A stretch of 64,000 bases of DNA from Pyrinomonadaceae bacterium. Its GTDB lineage: Bacteria > Acidobacteriota > Blastocatellia > Pyrinomonadales > Pyrinomonadaceae. The DNA is taken from contig JBGASE010000001.1 in the NCBI GenBank assembly GCA_044229875.1, forward strand, positions 29,639-93,638. The letters are read 5' to 3'. Position numbers and translations under genes: made by a program. The notes under the pieces are model-generated. The model was given only the letters and a program-made list of their open reading frames with translations. It was not told where the DNA came from and did not search any database. Shown piece by piece: positions 29,918-53,490 of the stretch (position 1 is the first letter of the stretch; each line of letters starts with the position of its first letter).

Positions 29918-30040
29918 ATGTCTCGCAGATGGCCGTATTGGCTCGGAAGTACAAAATTGGAAATCGTAAAATAAATGATAGACCCGAAATCGCCTTTCGT
30001 CATTTCGGCACGCCACTTAGAAGGAAAATTCATATCATTG

Positions 30041-30295
30041 CTGAACCGCGCACGCAGTAAGCGGGTGTCAGCAAGCAGTAAGCGGCGAGCAGCGCGCAGT
30101 GCAGAACCGCGCACGCAGTAAGCGGGTGTCAGTAAGCAGTCAGCAGTGGACAGCGCGCAGTGCAGAACCGCGCACGCAGTAAGCGGGTGTCAGTAAGCAG
30201 TGAGCAGTAAGCGGCGAGCAGCGCACGCAGTAAGCGGGTGTCAGTAAGCAGTGAGTCGTGCAGTCAGACGCCAGACGTCAGTGAGCAGTGAGTGG
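30041..30295. repeat. about four tandem copies of a 61-nt unit containing the 29-nt motif GAACCGCGCACGCAGTAAGCGGGTGTCAG
   Basis: Units start near 30043, 30104 and 30165, with a degenerate copy near 30221. The inter-motif segments are also near-identical, so this is a minisatellite. It lies between the tkt start and the FGGY kinase stop. Confidence 0.9.
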
Positions 30296-43407: not shown

Positions 43408-43669
43408 TGTTCGAGCTTCTCCGCAGTCGCGGATTTTCCATCGCGCAAAACCTGCGCCGGCGATTTCTCCAAGGTTCGCACCTGAAGGCCGTGGCAAATG
43501 AGCCTTTGGCAGGAAGACTCCAAACGCATCAACATTTGGCGGCCAGAGCATGACTTGCCACGAGCTTCAGCTAGTGGGTTGAATGTCCTTAAAATAGAAC
43601 TGGGCTTTAGCCCAACTGAGTCGTTTTGGCTAAAGCCGGAATTCTTAGAACTCCTGACCCACAGCCTGA

Positions 43670-43804
43670 AGGCCGTGGCAATACTACCGGGCCCGTTGGT
43701 ACGATTCTAATCTCGGACGATTCATCTCCGAAGATCCGATCGGCTTCGCCGGCGGCGATGTCAATCTTTACGGGTATGTCGGAAACGGACTATATGACCA
43801 ATAA
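43670..43804 (+). pseudogene. Rhs/YD-repeat core junction remnant with the toxin domain deleted
   Basis: This frame reads RPWQYYRARWYDSNLGRFISEDPIGFAGGDVNLYGYVGNGLYDQ*. That is the RHS repeat-associated core signature, preceded by a stop and truncated 4 residues after the core. Confidence 0.8.
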
Positions 43805-44060
43805 CGAACTATTCATTTGCAGAGTTTGTGGTTTGACCCAGACTGATATGCCGTGGGGCGAAAGTGGAGAAGACCCGAGTCACGACATTTGCGATTGCTG
43901 CGGAACAGAATTCGGATACGAGGACTCTTCAATTGATACAATTAAGAAAAACCGGGAGATGTGGCTGAAGTCGGGGGCAAGATGGTGGAACAGTAAAGTC
44001 CTGCCGAATGACTGGATTTTGGACGAACAGCTTGAGAATATCCCATTGCAATTTAGATAA
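43794..44060 (+). CDS. small Cys-rich protein (CPCC-family-like), immunity-like
   Basis: 88 aa from ATG 43794, which overlaps the remnant's end. CRVCGL...PWGE..EDPSHDICDCCGTEFGYED pattern. The track ORF 43626.. is a read-through artefact upstream of this ATG. Confidence 0.65.
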   Translation: MTNNELFICRVCGLTQTDMPWGESGEDPSHDICDCCGTEFGYEDSSIDTIKKNREMWLKSGARWWNSKVLPNDWILDEQLENIPLQFR

Positions 44061-44135
44061 TCGCCCGCCTCGGGATTTTTCGCTCCGATAACGATGCCGA
44101 ATCTTCCGAAATGACAAATTGGAAAAGGAGCCGAA

Positions 44136-44381
44136 ATGCTTGTTGCAAAAGTGATCGTAAATGAAGAAACGGGAATTCCAACCGGCGAGGTTGAGCTTGT
44201 TCTTGACCAAAACGGACTTCATGAACTTTGTGAAAGACTCGAATGGATTCGGCGCGGAGAGACGGATCATTTCCACCTGATGACGACCGAGTGGGGCAGC
44301 GGTGAACTTCAGATCTTTCAGGAATCAGAGAAAGAGAAGCTTGTTCATCACTTCAAGGTCCGTCATGTGCCGGAAGTCTGA
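44136..44381 (+). CDS. small immunity-like protein (Imm32-like by recollection)
   Basis: 81 aa. AAGGAG lies 6 nt upstream. GLHELCERLEWIRRGETDHFHLMTTEWGSGEL pattern. Confidence 0.6.
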   Translation: MLVAKVIVNEETGIPTGEVELVLDQNGLHELCERLEWIRRGETDHFHLMTTEWGSGELQIFQESEKEKLVHHFKVRHVPEV

Positions 44382-44548
44382 TTTCGGGAGTTACTCGACA
44401 ATGCCGATGCACGGAATGCTGGCAGTTCGAATATACGCATTGGTTTATGTTTTGAATTCGATTTCGTATCGAATAAATCGAAGATCGCTCACCCGATGAC
44501 TCAGACGGACATTCGATTGGTCAGAAAATACTTGGAGAAACGCAACAA

Positions 44549-44861
44549 ATGAACAACGTAGTTGAGAAATTAGAACTCTTTCGAGATTTGGCTCGGATGG
44601 AGTGCGGTCCGGCATTTTTCGATTTCCATAATGATTTCGACTTTTCCGGATGGTCATATTCAGATCGAACACTGATCTTTTGCTTCACGAGACCGACAGA
44701 TGATCTTGACCCTTGATACGCTTTATCGGGGTCGATTTGAGAATGAGGGAGAATTGCTCGACGTTTCGACTGACGGCAGATTTTGCATATGCTTCGATTT
44801 TATTGACGGATTTGATGGTCGCTTTCTATGTGAAGGATTAGAAGTCACGCCCTCCGTTTAA
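44549..44861 (+). pseudogene. frameshifted small immunity-like gene (55-aa plus 53-aa halves)
   Basis: ATG 44549 with GGAGA upstream opens MNNVVEKLELFRDL...TRPTDDLDP* (stop 44714-44716). An overlapping frame from 44700 continues ILTLDTLYRGRFENEG...EGLEVTPSV* to 44861. Confidence 0.45.
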
Positions 44862-44882
44862 ACGATTTTCGAATGCATTTGG

Positions 44883-44925
44883 GGTATTTTGGATTTGTGA
44901 TTTCGGATTGCGGATTGCCGCACCC
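44883..44925. repeat. 43-nt GATTTCGGATT-family repeat (copy A)
   Basis: GGTATTTTGGATTTGTGATTTCGGATTGCGGATTGCCGCACCC. 42 of 43 nt identical to 46889-46931. Confidence 0.85.
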
Positions 44926-44936
44926 AAGTAGAGTAG

Positions 44937-45353
44937 ATGACGTTTGATGAAGTTAGCACACATACTGCGAACGGGTCTGTTTGTGTAGACATTATCTCGA
45001 CACCGCAATACTCGGGATTCGTGAGAAAAGTGATTTTCTATCCGAGAAATCGGGTGTGTATAGAGTTTGTCGGCAAAGATGTTGGCGAGGATGAAAGCGG
45101 ATATGAATACTGTTGTACGTTTTCGTCACTCAATGAAGCGATACGTAGCATTGAACAGTTCCTTGATAAACCGCTCTCGAATTGGACAAATCATACGAGG
45201 TCCGGGACCCGGCCAAGAATCCAAGAGCCGACCAATATCAAGACGGGCCATGAGTTGCTAAAAGGTGACATAATTCGCTCGAGAATTCCCCTTCCGAGAA
45301 TTGGAGTTTATACGCCTCGGTTCGACCTCAATATCTTTGAATCACCGCACTGA
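44937..45353 (+). CDS. hypothetical 138-aa protein (immunity-like by context)
   Basis: ORF directly after repeat copy A, in the low-GC island. No family recognised. Confidence 0.5.
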   Translation: MTFDEVSTHTANGSVCVDIISTPQYSGFVRKVIFYPRNRVCIEFVGKDVGEDESGYEYCCTFSSLNEAIRSIEQFLDKPLSNWTNHTRSGTRPRIQEPTNIKTGHELLKGDIIRSRIPLPRIGVYTPRFDLNIFESPH

Positions 45354-45569
45354 GAGATTCGCGAAAAGAGTCAAGCTGTCATACGCTCGTATTCGACCAG
45401 ATAATGGCGCGCTATTCCGAAGTAGCCGATCCATTCAGCGACGGAAGCGGCGGTGAGTGATGATGCAGTCGTAATTACCCGACAGTCATACCTTCGTGTA
45501 AGACCAAATAGTGCCGCGACATTCCGATGGTGACGGCAGAAGGAGCTATCAGCGTCCATTTGAGGACAG

Positions 45570-45995
45570 GTGATTGTTATGAATGAAAACCAAACTGATT
45601 CGTGGATTCCAATCGAGAACAGCACGCAATGGCATCAGCTTGCTGAATCGTGTGACTATTTTGAGGACGGAGTGGTTCGCGAACTTAGTTGGACGGGCGG
45701 CGAATATGTTGATGCGAATCGGCAAATGAACTTCAAAGGTCTTCCGTTTGTTTGGCTTCTGATTCAAACGCAGAACGCCTCGGCTCCAGCGATTGAATTC
45801 CTGGTAATGGATGCCGTTGAAATCCGTTTGGATCATTCCTTCGCGCCCGAGTTCAACATGGTCTTCGGCGCGAATGGGATCTTATTTGAGCTTTCACCCA
45901 GCGGTGCCGGGTTTATTCGCGGGGCCCAATTATTTTATAGAATGCCGGAGCGACAGTCATTGGGAGAAACAGGCTTGTTGACAGGCCACGAATAG
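45570..45995 (+). CDS. hypothetical 141-aa protein (immunity-like by context)
   Basis: GTG 45570 or ATG 45579 start after GAGGA. No family recognised. Confidence 0.5.
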   Translation: MIVMNENQTDSWIPIENSTQWHQLAESCDYFEDGVVRELSWTGGEYVDANRQMNFKGLPFVWLLIQTQNASAPAIEFLVMDAVEIRLDHSFAPEFNMVFGANGILFELSPSGAGFIRGAQLFYRMPERQSLGETGLLTGHE

Positions 45996-46140
45996 ATCTT
46001 TCACGTCCTGGAAGTACCCGCTCAAGCCACCAAGGCGGCAACGACTGAGATGGAATCCGAAATTCGGAGCCTTGAAGTTACTTTCAAGGTAACAGTCTCC
46101 TGTAAGTCGTCGCCGACCTCTCGTATCGACGAATGCCGCC

Positions 46141-46194
46141 GAAGATCCGATCGGTTTCGCCGGCGGCGATGTCCCGTTACCTTTTTCAAATTGA
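46141..46194 (+). pseudogene. short degenerate Rhs junction remnant (EDPIGFAGGDVPLPFSN*)
   Basis: Positions 46144-46173 are near-identical at the DNA level to the junction copies at 43733 and 47018, then diverge and hit a stop. Confidence 0.7.
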
Positions 46195-46311
46195 TGAGAC
46201 GATAATATTGATGCGCTTTTGGAGATTATCGTTCCTTATCTCGAAGATATTGATCGATTGGAATTGGCTCAACCTGTCTAAGAAAGTCTTCTTTCGGGGA
46301 CGAATAGCGAA

Positions 46312-46749
46312 ATGAAAATAGAGGAACTAGTTTTGAACTATCGGGGATTTCTCGTCGATGCTTGGCCGACAATGAAAGCGATCTTGGCTGAATGGGATTG
46401 GGATTCGTCGCCCTACTTCGTCGACGAGTGGATGCAGGCAAATTGGGAGCTCTTGGTCGAACGGCCCCTCGACATCAAACTTCCTCCATACGGATTAGAT
46501 CGCTCAACAAAATGTCGATATATCGATCCCGGGGTCATGCCCAGTCACGAGATCTTAGTCACCGAATCTGGTTCGATTCAGCCGCCACGCCTACGATTTC
46601 TTTGCTTCGAAACGAATAGGGACGGTGTAAGTCGGTTTGAGCCGCCTTTTGATCGCGTTTTTGTTGAAGACCCCAAAACGACTAAACGCTTTTCAGTTCA
46701 ATTGCCCGAATTAAGGTTCGACCTTAGAACAATTGAACAACGAAGTTGA
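46312..46749 (+). CDS. hypothetical 145-aa protein (immunity-like by context)
   Basis: ORF downstream of the second junction remnant. No family recognised. Confidence 0.5.
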   Translation: MKIEELVLNYRGFLVDAWPTMKAILAEWDWDSSPYFVDEWMQANWELLVERPLDIKLPPYGLDRSTKCRYIDPGVMPSHEILVTESGSIQPPRLRFLCFETNRDGVSRFEPPFDRVFVEDPKTTKRFSVQLPELRFDLRTIEQRS

Positions 46750-46761
46750 CCACGAACATAG

Positions 46762-46888
46762 TCGCAGTCGCAAGGGCGTCAGCGTTTCATCGTCGGCGGG
46801 AAGGAGAACACGAAGTTCATCTATCACGGTGCCGACGTCATCGCCGACGATAATTCCGGAACGCTGACGAAATACATCAACGGCCTTC
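46762..46888 (+). pseudogene. Rhs core fragment (..QRFIVGGKENTKFIYHGADVIADDNSGTLTKYINGL) truncated by a repeat insertion
   Basis: Matches the usual Rhs pattern x-Y-x-Y-D-G-x-x-hI-A-E-x-D-x-x-G-x-h-x-x-x-Y-h-x-G. It begins just after a stop and ends where the 46889 repeat starts. Confidence 0.6.
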
Positions 46889-47015
46889 GGTATTTTGGAT
46901 TTGTGATTTCGGATCGCGGATTGCCGCACCCGACAAACGCAAACGGCGTACCCGCGTGTTCGATAATTTCAACGGACACCAAATCCGAAATCGGAAATCT
47001 GAAATCCCAAATTGG
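46889..47015. mobile_element. MITE-like element (about 127 nt) with imperfect GATTTCGGATT-type terminal inverted repeats
   Basis: The left end equals repeat copy A. The right end is CACCAAATCCGAAATCGGAAATCTGAAATCCCAAATTGG in opposite orientation. It sits exactly between the Rhs core fragment and the DPIGFAGG junction. Confidence 0.55.
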
Positions 47016-47656
47016 ATGACCCGATCGGCTTTGCCGGCGGCGATGTCAATCTTTACGGGTATGTCGGAAACGGGCCGCTCGGAGCGGTTGATCCGTTTGG
47101 GCTCGAGGCCAGCTACTGGAATGAGATTGCGGATTCCGCTGATGATAGCATCGAGTATGCACGGCAGTTTTATCAGCCGGATCCGCATGCGATCAATACG
47201 AATACAGCGGTCAATTTTGTGTCGTATATGGCCCACGGCACCGTTGATTTACTTCGCGTCGGCAACGGCATCGCCGAGGCCTATTATTGTGAAGAAACGT
47301 GGGAAGGGCGCGCGGCATATGTATTGATGGACATTGCGCGAGCGTCAGGGATCGCGAGCATTGTGCTTGGCGGCGCAGTCGCGGGTGGATTATCGAAGAT
47401 TCCTCCTTCGCGATTTCTCACACGACCAATCAGGTTGCCGGGTAGAGAATGGCCTCAAGGCGGAAAGACATTTCGTGTGGCTCCTTTTGGAAATAACACG
47501 ACCCATCCGATTGGTAGGTGGCCCCACTATCATAGACTCGGACCTAAGATTATGAAGGGGAAAAAGAAAGGCCAGACAATGCCCGGCCAGTCTATGAAGC
47601 GTCACCGTCCGTGGGAATCGTCTCCGTACGATAGATCGTTTTGGGACCGGTTTTAG
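47012..47656 (+). CDS. orphan Rhs C-terminal toxin cassette (core junction plus about 180-aa unrecognised toxin domain)
   Basis: TTG-initiated ORF (M)DDPIGFAGGDVNLYGYVGNGPLGAVDPFGLE, the complete Rhs core end with the DPxGL motif. Followed by a novel domain with a Gly-rich hydrophobic segment and a basic tail carrying PHYHR and HRPWE. Confidence 0.8.
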   Translation: MDDPIGFAGGDVNLYGYVGNGPLGAVDPFGLEASYWNEIADSADDSIEYARQFYQPDPHAINTNTAVNFVSYMAHGTVDLLRVGNGIAEAYYCEETWEGRAAYVLMDIARASGIASIVLGGAVAGGLSKIPPSRFLTRPIRLPGREWPQGGKTFRVAPFGNNTTHPIGRWPHYHRLGPKIMKGKKKGQTMPGQSMKRHRPWESSPYDRSFWDRF

Positions 47657-47669
47657 AGGAGGTATAAGC

Positions 47670-48011
47670 ATGTCAAGTGAAGTTCGACCACCGATCATCG
47701 TCAACGCGAGTGGGGACGTCTATTTTTACCGCACAGTGGCTGAGGTGGAATTGGATTTGGAAGTTCCAGACGTGCGAAACGGCGAGTATGAAGTTTTTGA
47801 TTCACACGGACGTGTTCTTGGGCTCGAGGTTATTTCCAGTGCAATTCAGGATCTGGTGAGAGTGGTCTCGACTGAACGGTTCGATCCCGAGTATTTGCGT
47901 GACTTCATGATCTCTTTTTTCACGGTTGCTGGGGAGAACGAATCGGGGTTGCGCTCAATGCACCTTCGGGAGTTAGTCGATCTTGGGTTGCGTCTATCAA
48001 ATCGCATGTGA
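47670..48011 (+). CDS. candidate cognate immunity protein (113 aa)
   Basis: ATG lies 13 nt after the toxin stop, with AGAGGAGG 7 nt upstream. Small acidic protein; no family recognised. Confidence 0.7.
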   Translation: MSSEVRPPIIVNASGDVYFYRTVAEVELDLEVPDVRNGEYEVFDSHGRVLGLEVISSAIQDLVRVVSTERFDPEYLRDFMISFFTVAGENESGLRSMHLRELVDLGLRLSNRM

Positions 48012-48041
48012 CATTTCTATTGAGTTACTACACAAAATCGC

Positions 48042-48064
48042 GGTAGTGGGTCTGACCCACTACC
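48042..48064. other. perfect 10-bp hairpin GGTAGTGGGT-CTG-ACCCACTACC flanked by AAAATCGC direct repeats
   Basis: Read directly from the sequence, at the right-hand edge of the island just upstream of ffh. Confidence 0.6.
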
Positions 48065-48079
48065 AAAATCGCCAATTCC

Positions 48080-48117
48080 TTGACACATTTGACATCGCCG
48101 ACTAGTATTTATAGTTT
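48080..48117 (+). promoter_or_regulatory. candidate ffh promoter(s): TTGACA-17-TAGTAT and overlapping TTGACA-17-TAGTTT
   Basis: Two TTGACA hexamers (48080 and 48089), each with an A/T-rich -10-like hexamer at 17-nt spacing, 30-60 nt upstream of the ffh ATG. Confidence 0.3.
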
Positions 48118-48144
48118 CGGCTCTAAAGCCAGAAGTGTCTCTAT

Positions 48145-51942: not shown

Positions 51943-51993
51943 AATTCGGATTCGTGAATTCGGATTTGGGATTTCGGAATTCGGATTTGGATC
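51943..51993. repeat. GATTTCGGAATTCGGATTTGG-type repeat block (opposite orientation to 52098-52349)
   Basis: AATTCGGATTCGTGAATTCGGATTTGGGATTTCGGAATTCGGATTTGGATC begins immediately after the rplS stop. Confidence 0.85.
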
Positions 51994-52036
51994 AACGTCA
52001 TCGCGAATCGCGCAACGCAACAGGAAGAGGCTTCTA

Positions 52037-52349
52037 TGTTGCGCCGCGCGTTTCGCGTTTTTGTTTTACTCGGGGACGGAACCTCGACCTCAACCCTGAT
52101 CAGAATCCGAAATCCGAAATCGGCGCGATTCGCCGTTTCGTTTTATCTGAAGCGTGAAACTCGAACTCTTCCCCGATCAGAATCCGCAATCCGAAATCAG
52201 AAATCCGAAATCCGAAATCCAAAATCCGAAATCGGCCTGGTGTTGCGCCGCGCGACTGTTGGTTTTATCTTAACAGTACGATGAACCTCGAACTTTTCCC
52301 CGATCAGAATCCGCAATCCAAAATCAAAAATCCGAAATCCAAAATCGGC
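52037..52349. repeat. three tandem units of about 90-115 nt, each ending in (A)ATCCGAAATC reiterations
   Basis: Units span roughly 52037-52124, 52125-52240 and 52241-52349. They share TGTTGCGCCGCGCG..TTTTAT..GAAC(C/T)TCGA(A/C)CT..CCCGATCAGAATCCG(A/C)AATCC..AAATCGGC. The third unit contains the rnhB ATG. Confidence 0.85.
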
Positions 52350-52937
52350 ACGCTTTTTGAAGATCAGGCCCGACTCGAGGGGTATCGGTTCATTGCCGGA
52401 GTCGACGAGGTCGGACGCGGATGTCTCGCCGGGCCGGTCGTCGCAGCGGCATGTATCCTTGATCTCTCGAAGCCATTACCTGAATTTCTCAACGATTCGA
52501 AACAGTTGACTGAATCGAAGCGTTTGAAGATAGACGAAGAGCTCCGCGCCAACGCGCTCACGTATGCGATCGGCGAAGTGTCGGCCGAAGAGATTGATCG
52601 TACCGATATTCTCAGAGCAACGATGAAGGCGATGAAACTTGCGATCGAAGCGCTTTCGCCGCCGGCTGATTATTTGCTGATCGACGCGCTTCGTTTGAAG
52701 GAACTGCTTTTGCCGCAAAAGGCGATCATCAAAGGCGACGCAACATCGGTCTCAATCGCCGCCGCGTCGATCATCGCCAAAACCTATCGCGACAATCTGA
52801 TGCGCGATCTCGCACGGGTGCATCCCGAATACGGATTCGAAAAACACGTCGGCTACGGAACGAAAGCACATTTCGACGCGATCAAACAGCACGGCGCATG
52901 CGATTTTCACCGCCGAAGTTTCAAAGGAGTTGTCTGA
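52281..52937 (+). CDS. rnhB: ribonuclease HII
   Basis: 218 aa. IAGVDEVGRGCLAGPVVAAA, DSKQLTESKR, and a C-terminal HRRSF. The first ~22 residues are encoded by the repeat unit, and no alternative in-frame start was seen. Confidence 0.9.
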   Translation: MNLELFPDQNPQSKIKNPKSKIGTLFEDQARLEGYRFIAGVDEVGRGCLAGPVVAAACILDLSKPLPEFLNDSKQLTESKRLKIDEELRANALTYAIGEVSAEEIDRTDILRATMKAMKLAIEALSPPADYLLIDALRLKELLLPQKAIIKGDATSVSIAAASIIAKTYRDNLMRDLARVHPEYGFEKHVGYGTKAHFDAIKQHGACDFHRRSFKGVV

Positions 52938-52978: not shown

Positions 52979-53267
52979 GTGGGTTTTGAGTGGGATGAGC
53001 GCAAAAACCGATTAAACATTGAAAACCACGGAATCGACTTTACTGACGTTGATTTTTGAAGGTCCGATGTTGGTCGGAATCGACGATCGTGAAGATTATG
53101 GGGAAATTCGACTTATTGGAATTGGTTATTTGAACACCATCGCGGTCGTCATTGTTTTCACCGAACCTTCTCCTGAAAAGATCCGTGTTATTTCGATCCG
53201 AAAGGCGATAAGATATGAACGTGAAAGATTTGAAAAGGCAATCACAAACCGACTGGACGAAACTTGA
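52979..53267 (+). pseudogene. brnT: BrnT-family (DUF497) toxin, frameshifted in a T5 run
   Basis: GTG 52979 frame reads VGFEWDERKNRLNIENHGIDFTDVDF* (stop 53057-53059). The +1 frame continues IFEGPMLVGIDDREDYGEIRLIGIG...KIRVISIRKAIRYERERF to 53267. The shift maps to TTTTT at 53053-53057. Confidence 0.75.
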
Positions 53268-53490
53268 AGCAATGACGGATAGTGAAATATCCACCTCTGA
53301 CATTCAACCGCTTGAAGATTCATATTTTGCTGATGCCAAAGTGCGCTTGCCACACGGCAAAGTAAGCGTTGTCTTGAGTCTCGATGAGGAAACCAACGAT
53401 TGGTATCAATCGCAAGGTGCTGACTCACGGGAGTTGAGGTCTGTCGCAATCCGCATTTACGCTGAAGCGCATAAAGAAATTCGAAGATAG
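53215..53490 (+). CDS. brnA: BrnA-family antitoxin
   Basis: 91 aa. QTDWTKLEAMTDSEISTSDIQPLEDSYFADAKV...VVLSLDEETNDWYQSQG pattern, typical of BrnA. Overlaps the brnT 3' end. Confidence 0.75.
   Translation: MNVKDLKRQSQTDWTKLEAMTDSEISTSDIQPLEDSYFADAKVRLPHGKVSVVLSLDEETNDWYQSQGADSRELRSVAIRIYAEAHKEIRR

What the first reader, a model, noticed from the sequence alone, without database searches (positions are those of the whole stretch)
43408..48144. Island of orphan Rhs junctions and immunity-like genes with no full-length rhs gene nearby
A visibly A+T-richer 4.7-kb stretch lies between two core genes (acyl-CoA ligase and ffh). It contains three copies of the Rhs core/toxin junction (DPIGFAGGDVNLYGYVGNG) at 43733-43788, 46144-46173 (truncated) and 47018-47073. 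Copies 1 and 3 differ at only 2 of 56 nt. There is also a piece of upstream Rhs core at 46762-46888. Only the last junction still carries a toxin domain. The others are followed directly by small unrelated ORFs (88, 81, about 105 frameshifted, 138, 141 and 145 aa) that look like stockpiled immunity genes. Established work on Rhs/CdiA systems shows that orphan toxin-immunity modules are exchanged into the main locus by recombination across this conserved junction. Unusual features here are the near-complete loss of the toxins, the retention of many candidate immunity genes, and the very short homology arms.
Basis: partly seen in the sequence, partly recalled or inferred. Interest (0 to 1): 0.7.

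Follow-up and report, generated by a model that had tools for sequence, protein, structure and literature searches.

The report
Decayed Rhs toxin array keeping antidotes
A soil acidobacterium carries a 4.6-kb island that is the worn-down remains of a row of spare Rhs toxin/antidote cassettes: six of seven toxin genes have been cut away but the antidote (immunity) genes are kept. This is a known kind of defensive gene stockpile, seen here in a little-studied phylum.

Summary
Three copies of the Rhs core/toxin junction, a 110-nt Rhs core fragment and a GC dip (0.49 against 0.546) lie between the acyl-CoA ligase gene and ffh in a Pyrinomonadaceae (Acidobacteriota) genome. Independent metagenome assemblies reproduce the structure.

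The island holds seven co-oriented modules. Only the last keeps a toxin domain (no Pfam, PDB-sequence or fold match) with its 113-aa immunity gene. The other small ORFs have homologues elsewhere that sit just after polymorphic-toxin C-termini, inside Rhs orphan arrays, or fused to Barstar or Imm42.

Toxin stubs are still visible: 4 codons after junction 1, 10 codons before the 81-aa ORF and about 28 codons before the "frameshifted" ORF. A sister haplotype still has the toxin upstream of the 81-aa gene. Three sister contigs carry the intact 128-aa form of the frameshifted gene.

Best reading: an eroded Rhs orphan array that now acts mostly as a poly-immunity locus. Rhs orphan modules, polyimmunity loci and orphan Rhs immunity genes are all described already, so this is a new member of a known kind.

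Untested: whether the genome has a full-length rhs, and whether any of these genes is expressed or protective. The 64-kb window has no full-length rhs.

The parts
43408..43678 (.). Non-coding spacer after the acyl-CoA ligase stop. It contains a 17-nt direct repeat, CCTGAAGGCCGTGGCAA, at 43481-43497 and 43665-43681. The second copy abuts the point where Rhs remnant 1 is truncated at its 5' end.
   Evidence: No similarity to the same interval in relatives L006 and L007, or to any other locus fetched.
43679..43804 (+). Module 1: 3' remnant of the Rhs core plus junction copy 1 (QYYRARWYDSNLGRFISEDPIGFAGGDVNLYGYVGNG). It is fused in frame to only 4 further codons (LYDQ*), so the toxin body is missing. 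A stop codon lies just upstream, so there is no expressible ORF.
   Evidence: 82-86% DNA identity to six junctions of L092. 94.6% protein identity to P0011.
43794..44060 (+). 88-aa Cys4 zinc-ribbon protein, a candidate immunity gene. Its ATG overlaps the end of the junction reading frame.
   Evidence: 89 of the best 150 hits belong to this family. It occurs as tandem repeats (P0012, P0013) and fused to Barstar (P0040) and Imm42 (P0054). Homologue P0024 lies 4 nt after a toxin C-terminus that matches PDB 8ey4_A, a PT-VENN protein, at E 7e-21. Invariant residues C9, C12, C36; C33 and C35 nearly invariant.
44059..44091 (+). Module 2: stub of 'toxin B', its last 10 codons (NRPPRDFSLR) plus the stop.
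   Evidence: 100% identical to the end of the 133-aa toxin fragment in sister contig L100. Identity between the two haplotypes begins at 44059. The same toxin precedes the homologue in L103.
44136..44381 (+). 81-aa immunity gene, cognate to toxin B. Distantly Imm32-like.
   Evidence: Imm32 match at E 1.2e-3 here and 1.6e-4 for P0152, over the whole profile but below the Pfam cut-off. Toxin B ends 44-45 nt upstream of the gene in L100 and L103.
44467..44552 (+). Module 3: stub of an Ntox24-like toxin, about 28 codons (...SKIAHPMTQTDIRLVRKYLEKRNK*). Its stop overlaps the next ATG (ATGA).
   Evidence: 90% DNA identity to L092 5688-5929. In L092 the same module still has the junction and most of the toxin, with a weak Ntox24 hit.
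44549..44861 (+). Immunity gene broken by a 74-nt deletion at 44707, with TT microhomology at the ends. The intact allele is 128 aa.
   Evidence: L099, L100 and L101 are 100% identical on both sides of the deletion and encode 128 aa. P0005 is 88% identical.
44883..44925 (.). 43-nt copy of a dispersed element rich in heptamer repeats. It is 98% identical to 46889-46931.
44937..45353 (+). 138-aa ORF, a candidate immunity gene (module 4). No toxin stub was detected.
   Evidence: Family of at least 8 homologues; P0006 is 59% identical. In L093 and L094 the homologue lies 6 nt after a 118-aa ORF and just before a junction remnant. No Pfam or PDB match.
45579..45995 (+). 138-aa ORF (141 aa from the GTG at 45570), a candidate immunity gene (module 5).
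   Evidence: Homologue P0031 (48% identical) lies next to RHS fragments in GCA_016712785.1, locus L096.
46139..46173 (+). Junction copy 2: a 35-nt remnant (AEDPIGFAGGDV) with unrelated sequence on both sides.
46312..46749 (+). 145-aa ORF, a candidate immunity gene (module 6).
   Evidence: Family of at least 13 homologues with invariant W, P, D, QANWE residues. P0061 is a tandem duplicate. P0016 lies downstream of a toxin plus a 63-aa gene in L095. AlphaFold2 model with pLDDT 91: two helices plus a small beta barrel. No PDB match.
46762..46888 (+). Module 7: Rhs core fragment (…RFIVGGKENTKFIYHGADVIADDNSGTLTKYINGLR). In P0011 this region lies about 87 aa upstream of the junction.
46889..47011 (.). 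123-bp element with inverted heptamer-repeat arms (46886-46914 and 46983-47011). It takes the place of about 260 nt of Rhs core.
   Evidence: (I1, D2). A similar element interrupts an RHS fragment in L096.
47012..47656 (+). Orphan Rhs C-terminus and the only complete toxin. It comprises junction copy 3 (47018-47073), a DPFGL motif, a helical N sub-domain, and a 75-aa C sub-domain (FRVAPFGN…WPHYHR…KRHRPWE…FWDRF). It has no proper start codon or ribosome-binding site.
   Evidence: TIGR03696 positions 48-76, E 4.9e-6. 52-54% identical to the C-terminus of the 1259-aa RHS protein P0007. Alignment A2. The C sub-domain is also found on Hcp and PG_binding proteins. No Pfam, PDB sequence or fold match.
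47670..48011 (+). 113-aa cognate immunity gene of the last toxin, preceded by a good Shine-Dalgarno sequence (GAGGAGG).
   Evidence: 39% identical to the ORF after P0007 in L091, and 33% to the ORF after the homologous toxin in L110. Fused to the toxin C sub-domain in P0058.

Best explanation
The island is the eroded remnant of an array of Rhs 'orphan' cassettes in a Pyrinomonadaceae genome. It sits in a variable intergenic hotspot between the acyl-CoA ligase gene and ffh. Each cassette has the order junction, toxin C-terminus, immunity gene.

Seven cassettes can be recognised. In six of them the toxin-coding DNA has been removed, leaving stubs of 0-28 codons. The downstream immunity gene and its immediate upstream sequence are kept. 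Only the last cassette still encodes a toxin, and it lacks a start codon and the Rhs shell.

Shown:
- the anatomy and the toxin stubs;
- homologous toxin-immunity pairs elsewhere;
- sister haplotypes that still carry toxin B and the intact 128-aa gene.

Inferred:
- The cassettes piled up by serial displacement from, or recombination with, one resident rhs core. This would explain why the three junction copies are 90-97% identical to each other.
- The locus now works mainly as a poly-immunity store that protects the cell against Rhs toxins fired by neighbours.
- The last cassette is a silent spare. It could be reactivated only by a crossover within its 59-nt junction.
For: - Junction copies and core fragment.
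- Toxin stubs: 44059-44091 is identical to the end of the L100 toxin. 44467-44552 is 90% identical in DNA to the L092 module, which keeps its junction and Ntox24-like toxin.
- Conserved toxin-immunity pairing for the last module: L091, L110 and P0058.
- 81-aa gene after toxin B in L100 and in the independent sample L103.
- 88-aa family fused to Barstar and Imm42, and following a PT-VENN toxin.
- The other families occur in Rhs or toxin arrays.
- The loss is selective: 1 of 7 toxins is intact against 6 of 7 immunity genes (Fisher two-sided p = 0.029). The seventh immunity gene is intact in sister contigs.
- The window's junction copies are 90-97% identical to each other, against a mean of 79% among the six junctions of L092.
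- Relatives L006 and L007 have only about 760 bp, with one unrelated gene, in this interval.
- GC dip.
- Independent assemblies agree.
- Literature on orphan Rhs immunity genes and polyimmunity loci.
Against: - No expression or protection data exist.
- Only one ORF has any Pfam immunity match, and that match is below the cut-off.
- Context evidence is weaker for the 138-, 141- and 145-aa ORFs. Their homologues are in arrays, but not always directly after a recognisable toxin.
- No full-length rhs was found in the 64 kb. The rest of the genome could not be searched, so the source of the junction sequence is unknown.
- Intergenic gaps of 75-316 nt are longer than in classic polyimmunity operons.
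- One immunity gene is broken in this genome.
Confidence: 0.8

Rival explanations
1. The island is an active reserve of toxin cassettes. Its main role would be to supply new C-terminal toxins to a full-length rhs gene elsewhere in the genome, by homologous recombination across the junction.
For: The last module is a complete toxin-immunity pair behind a 59-nt junction that is 96% identical to copy 1. Such exchange is documented in Salmonella. Logan contigs break at 43738 and 47053. The window's own repeats do not explain these positions at k = 31, which hints at further junction copies in the samples (my inference).
Against: - Six of seven modules have no toxin left to donate.
- Homology arms are 35-110 nt. 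The arm of the last module is interrupted by a 123-bp repeat element and a deletion of about 260 nt. In Salmonella LT2 the shared stretch is 522 bp, and typical arrays have 240-1700 nt.
- No full-length rhs lies within 64 kb.
Confidence: 0.12
2. The island is neutral genomic debris: a dead Rhs locus that is decaying, in which the small ORFs are no longer used.
For: There are stubs, truncated junctions, an inserted repeat element, a 74-nt deletion in one ORF, low GC, and no clear excess of promoters (6 found against 5.0 expected).
Against: - The decay is strongly one-sided: toxins are lost and immunity ORFs stay intact.
- Breakpoints spare each immunity gene and the 30-80 nt upstream of it.
- The ORFs belong to conserved families of 35-60% identity and full length.
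- One of them folds with pLDDT 91.
Confidence: 0.12
3. The last Rhs C-terminus and its immunity gene work as a type II toxin-antitoxin-like pair inside the cell, as reported for a Salmonella orphan.
For: An intact toxin and immunity gene lie adjacent. A paper title and abstract listed (PMC7043789) describe such a role for Rhs elements.
Against: There is no ATG or GTG with a ribosome-binding site at the start of the toxin ORF; it opens with TTG right after a repeat element. No promoter-like site precedes it.
Confidence: 0.04
4. The structure is an assembly or binning chimera caused by the repeated junction.
For: Short-read contigs do break at the junction copies.
Against: ENA contigs assembled at k = 141, and Logan contigs from several samples, span junction copy 2, the core fragment, the repeat element and the ORF boundaries at 99.5-100% identity.
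Confidence: 0.02

Closest known systems
[quoted passage not shown] 2014, PMC3967940)
   Same: A 3' fragment of the Rhs core ends in the conserved junction and is followed by a variable toxin and its immunity gene. The fragment has no start or shell of its own. Activation by recombination with a full-length gene is presumed.
   Different: - In Salmonella the orphan lies directly after the main gene and shares 522 bp at 95% identity with it.
- Here no main gene lies within 64 kb and the arms are 35-110 nt.
- Six of the seven modules here have lost the toxin.
Polyimmunity loci (Zhang, Iyer, Aravind et al. 2012, PMC3482391)
   Same: A tandem, co-oriented set of unrelated immunity genes, proposed to protect against toxins of non-kin. 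The content varies between close strains.
   Different: That paper states that polyimmunity loci are never interrupted by toxin genes or cassettes. This island still contains junction remnants, toxin stubs and one whole cassette, so it looks like an intermediate stage.
Orphan immunity genes and poly-immunity arrays downstream of Rhs effectors (Serratia Db10, Hagan et al. 2023, PMC10539506; Martinkus et al. 2026, Curr Biol 36:176, known here only as cited in bioRxiv 10.64898/2026.07.13.738213)
   Same: Standalone immunity genes without their toxins are retained next to Rhs sequences. In Serratia they were shown to protect against a foreign Rhs toxin.
   Different: Those arrays follow an intact, T6SS-linked rhs effector-immunity pair. 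Here the array stands alone between housekeeping genes, in Acidobacteriota, and its delivery system is unknown.
Orphan array in Acidobacteria MAG GCA_016709645.1, contig JADJMK010000039 (locus L092)
   Same: It has the same junction peptide and six junction copies in 19.7 kb, with no full-length rhs on the contig. It shares the Ntox24-like toxin plus immunity module at 90% DNA identity. Some of its toxins are truncated.
   Different: L092 keeps most of its toxins and longer core fragments. Its junction copies are more diverged from each other (mean 79% against 90-97% here).

Membership tests
Rhs orphan toxin/immunity cassette array | A 3' end of the Rhs core ending in the conserved junction (…RFxxxDPIGxxGGxNxYxYxxN…DPxGL) | tested here: met
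   Three copies. TIGR03696 positions 48-76 at E 4.9e-6; this is below the cut-off because only 30 residues remain. 86-95% protein identity to RHS proteins P0007 and P0011.
Rhs orphan toxin/immunity cassette array | A variable toxin domain directly after each junction | tested here: not met
   Present after copy 3 only (47074-47656). Copy 1 is followed by 4 codons and copy 2 by unrelated sequence.
Rhs orphan toxin/immunity cassette array | A cognate immunity gene immediately downstream of the toxin | tested here: met
   The 113-aa ORF starts 14 nt after the toxin stop. The pairing is conserved in L091 and L110, and the two are fused in P0058. Toxin stubs lie before the 81-aa and 128-aa genes.
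Rhs orphan toxin/immunity cassette array | The array lies downstream of a full-length rhs gene with which it shares core sequence | tested here: not met
   No RHS/YD similarity elsewhere in the 64-kb window. The rest of the genome could not be searched.
Full-length Rhs/YD-repeat toxin | YD/RHS repeat shell (PF05593, PF25023) of about 1000 aa or more | tested here: not met
   Only 43 aa plus 18 aa of core remain.
Polyimmunity locus (Zhang et al. 2012) | A tandem, same-strand array of several unrelated immunity genes | tested here: met
   Seven + strand ORFs with no similarity to each other. The immunity role is inferred from context in other loci.
Polyimmunity locus (Zhang et al. 2012) | Never interrupted by toxin genes or toxin cassettes | tested here: not met
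   Junction remnants at 43679 and 46139, toxin stubs, and one complete cassette at 47012-47656. The criterion is quoted.
Polyimmunity locus (Zhang et al. 2012) | Short intergenic distances consistent with a single transcript | tested here: inconclusive
   Gaps of 75, 167, 75, 225, 316 and 262 nt. The promoter and terminator scan is not informative.
Pfam Imm32 (for the 81-aa ORF) | Score above the Pfam gathering cut-off (27 bits) | tested here: not met
   19.2 bits here, and 22.0 and 13.3 bits for two homologues. The matches span the whole profile. This is a distant resemblance only.
Acquired interbacterial defence (AID) clusters of Bacteroidales (features recalled from my own knowledge; a passage of PMC10539506 describes them only as mobile arrays of orphan immunity genes) | Immunity array carried on a mobile element with its own recombinase | tested here: not met
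   No island ORF has a recombinase or integrase match. No tRNA gene in the window.

The most novel reading that the evidence does not exclude
The locus and its sister haplotypes may capture the conversion of an Rhs orphan-cassette array into a toxin-free polyimmunity locus. The route would be stepwise deletions that remove toxin bodies but always spare the immunity gene and its 30-80-nt upstream stub. The genome may have given up the weapon altogether, becoming an immunity-only 'cheater'. This would supply an origin for polyimmunity loci, which Zhang et al. 2012 describe as never interrupted by toxin cassettes.

A bolder variant is that the short junction remnants serve as portable crossover sites by which immunity-only cassettes are captured.
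Probability: 0.4. Interest if true: 0.5.

Novelty: new member of a known kind. Interest (0 to 1): 0.35.

Why it matters
- It extends Rhs orphan and poly-immunity biology to soil Acidobacteriota (Pyrinomonadaceae), where interbacterial weapons are almost unstudied.
- It gives a clear case, with visible toxin stubs and a sister haplotype that still has the toxin, of how toxin cassettes are pruned while antidotes are kept.
- It points to several protein families that have no Pfam entry:
  - a widespread Cys4 zinc-ribbon immunity-type domain;
  - four other small immunity-candidate families;
  - a toxin C-terminal domain (PHYHR…RHRPWE…FWDRF) carried by Rhs and Hcp proteins;
  - a second toxin, 'toxin B'.
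- None of this overturns current ideas. The value lies in annotation and evolutionary illustration.

Tried and rejected
- **Exact junction DNA.** Scans of the GTDB genome set and the JGI metagenomes found nothing. The genome and its near relatives are therefore absent from both collections.
- **Concatenated protein query.** A homologous-protein search with six ORFs joined found nothing. This was a false negative, because the same proteins are in the collection.
- **Rhs-core protein search.** It listed only hits of 265 aa or less and omitted P0011 itself. It therefore says nothing about full-length rhs genes.
- **Exact look-up of the 214-aa toxin.** It failed, so the accession of the 101-kb NCBI contig was not obtained.
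- **Family and sequence searches.** Pfam and NCBIfam gave no family for 6 of the 8 proteins. PDB sequence searches of four family profiles found nothing, apart from Rhs-junction matches for the toxin profile.
- **Fold searches.** Searches with the toxin model (pLDDT 74) and the 145-aa model (pLDDT 91) gave no significant match.
- **Other scans.** Rfam found nothing, and no tRNA genes were found.
- **Synteny.** Only two relatives share the ligase-ffh arrangement, and neither has Rhs sequence there. Whether a full-length rhs ever sat at this site is therefore open.
- **A weak similarity set aside.** The L093 118-aa ORF resembles the 141-aa ORF (47% over 36 aa). I judged this too weak to use.
- **Assembly artefact.** Considered and rejected.

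Full report
**1. Observation**

The three junction copies are real and are not due to chance. The 30-nt pattern occurs at 43733, 46144 and 47018 and in no shuffle. Copies 1 and 3 differ at 2 of 56 nt. Copy 2 is a 35-nt remnant with unrelated flanks.

Copy 1 also keeps 18 codons of core upstream (QYYRARWYDSNLGRFISE). The core fragment at 46762-46888 is 94% identical in protein to an acidobacterial RHS protein, P0011, and about 90% identical in DNA to Rhs fragments in L092.

The island (43408 to about 48000) has GC 0.490 against 0.546 elsewhere. It is the lowest-GC 4.6-kb stretch of the window.

Nothing else in the 64 kb resembles Rhs. The large ORFs are BamA, a TonB-dependent receptor, a GGDEF protein, transketolase and similar.

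**2. Source and reality of the structure**

Ffh is 93% identical to that of Pyrinomonadaceae/Acidobacteriota MAGs. Exact copies of the window's proteins occur on a 101-kb NCBI contig and on Logan and ENA metagenome contigs.

Those independent contigs match 43759-47031 at 99.5-100% identity. They span junction 2, the core fragment and the repeat element. The island is therefore not a chimera.

Short-read contigs end at the junction copies, as expected for a repeat.

**3. Boundaries**

In the two nearest genomes with the same tetR-ligase-ffh order (L006, L007), the interval is about 760 bp and holds one unrelated gene, different in each. Similarity to the window stops at the ligase stop codon and resumes at about 48001-48073, the ffh promoter region.

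The interval is therefore a variable hotspot, and the 4.6 kb is lineage-specific.

**4. What the ORFs are**

A full HMMER scan of 1.84 billion representatives, using the island proteins joined end to end, found homologues for every ORF.

- *Last module.* The toxin part is 52-54% identical to the C-terminus of a 1259-aa RHS protein, P0007. That protein has the same junction peptide and is followed by a 112-aa ORF 39% identical to the window's 113-aa ORF. The same pairing recurs in L110, and the two are fused in P0058.
- *Toxin architecture.* The toxin has a helical N sub-domain that is shared with proteins carrying other toxic ends, such as Ntox24 in P0009. It also has a 75-aa, highly conserved C sub-domain (FRxAPFGNRTGHPxGxWPHYHRRG…PGQGxxRHRPWE…DKSFWDRF). 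This C sub-domain also sits on Hcp and peptidoglycan-binding proteins. It has no Pfam, PDB-sequence or fold match, so its activity is unknown.
- *81-aa ORF.* It gives weak, full-length Imm32 matches. More tellingly, in sister contig L100 a toxin C-terminus ('toxin B') ends 45 nt before this identical gene. In an unrelated sample (L103) the same toxin precedes a 78%-identical homologue, in an array that also holds a junction, another toxin and an Imm44 gene.
- *'Frameshifted' ORF.* It is a 128-aa gene with a 74-nt deletion. Three sister contigs have it intact. In L092 the same gene follows a junction plus an Ntox24-like toxin at 90% DNA identity.
- *88-aa ORF.* It belongs to a large Cys4 zinc-ribbon family that accounts for 89 of the best 150 hits. 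The domain occurs in tandem repeats and fused to Barstar and Imm42. One homologue lies 4 nt after a toxin matching the solved PT-VENN protein 8ey4.
- *138-, 141- and 145-aa ORFs.* They belong to conserved families found inside Rhs or toxin arrays (L093/L094, L096, L095). The 145-aa protein gives a confident model (pLDDT 91) with no known fold match.

**5. Toxin erosion**

- The window keeps the last 10 codons of toxin B at 44059-44091. Identity with L100 starts exactly at 44059.
- It keeps about 28 codons of the Ntox24-like toxin at 44467-44552, ending in an ATGA overlap with the immunity gene.
- Junction 1 is joined in frame to 4 codons whose stop overlaps the 88-aa gene's start.
- In the last module, about 260 nt of core between the core fragment and the junction are replaced by a 123-bp element with inverted heptamer-repeat arms. 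This element is also dispersed elsewhere in the window and in relatives.
- Overall, one of seven toxins survives against six of seven immunity genes (p = 0.029).

**6. Mechanism**

*Shown.* The island is a row of cassettes of the Rhs orphan type. The toxin halves have been deleted and the immunity halves kept. The population still holds less-eroded haplotypes.

*Inferred.* The junction copies are 90-97% alike, whereas the six in L092 average 79%. This fits cassettes that each passed through the same resident rhs core (serial displacement) or were homogenised by conversion.

The retained genes probably protect against Rhs toxins of neighbours, as shown experimentally for orphan Rhs immunity in Serratia.

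The last cassette is silent. It has a TTG start, no ribosome-binding site and no shell. It could be revived only through its 59-nt junction. By comparison, the shared stretch in Salmonella is 522 bp, and typical metagenomic arrays have 240-1700 nt.

**7. Comparison and novelty**

Rhs orphan modules, polyimmunity loci, and orphan or poly-immunity arrays next to Rhs effectors are all described. This island fails two textbook criteria:
- there is no adjacent full-length rhs;
- it is interrupted by cassette remnants, unlike polyimmunity loci as described by Zhang et al..

It therefore reads as an intermediate between the two. L092, L096 and L103 show that similar partly eroded arrays are common in this lineage.

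I class it as a new member of a known kind and rate its interest as moderate to low. The most useful by-products are several unannotated toxin and immunity families.

**8. Limits**

The rest of the genome could not be searched. Expression and protection are untested. The immunity assignment for three of the ORFs rests on neighbourhood alone.

Noticed in passing
window 51945-52350; also 44883-44925 and 46889-47011: Arrays of a 7-nt repeat (AATCCGA / TTCGGAT) occur here. Composite repeat units of about 112 nt lie between rplS and rnhB. The same heptamer arrays match intergenic DNA in several related Pyrinomonadaceae loci, and one interrupts an RHS fragment in L096. This looks like a lineage-wide dispersed or mobile repeat.
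   Followed up: partly
window 30039-30252: A 61-nt tandem repeat (3.7 copies, 87% matches) that contains CAGTAAG heptamers. Unexplained.
   Followed up: no
window 43481-43497 and 43665-43681: An exact 17-nt direct repeat, CCTGAAGGCCGTGGCAA, lies 184 nt apart. The second copy ends exactly where Rhs similarity begins. It may be a scar of the event that truncated the Rhs core.
   Followed up: partly
window about 53019-53490 (L001 5967-6438): A BrnT-family toxin gene with an overlapping 91-aa partner, downstream of rnhB. This is an ordinary type II toxin-antitoxin pair.
   Followed up: no
window 47435-47653 (C-terminal 75 aa of the orphan toxin): A highly conserved domain (FRxAPFGNRTGHPxGxWPHYHRRG…RHRPWE…FWDRF) with no Pfam or PDB match. 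It is found at the C-terminus of RHS, Hcp and peptidoglycan-binding proteins. It is probably an undescribed polymorphic-toxin domain.
   Followed up: partly
L006 9381-9908 and L007 9361-9816: The ligase-ffh interval holds a different single gene in each relative: a GNAT-like 175-aa protein in L006 and an unknown 151-aa protein in L007. The site is therefore a recurrent insertion hotspot.
   Followed up: partly
L092 (GCA_016709645.1, JADJMK010000039), whole 19.7-kb locus: Six Rhs junction copies with toxins of several families (WHH/colicin-DNase with a SUKH immunity gene, Ntox24-like, and others) and no full-length rhs on the contig. This is a larger, less eroded version of the same kind of array.
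   Followed up: partly
tool behaviour: the search for homologous proteins missed exact matches when given a concatenated query. It also listed no hit longer than about 1.75 times the query, omitting P0011, from which nearly all of the query was taken. Negatives from this tool should be read with care.
   Followed up: no
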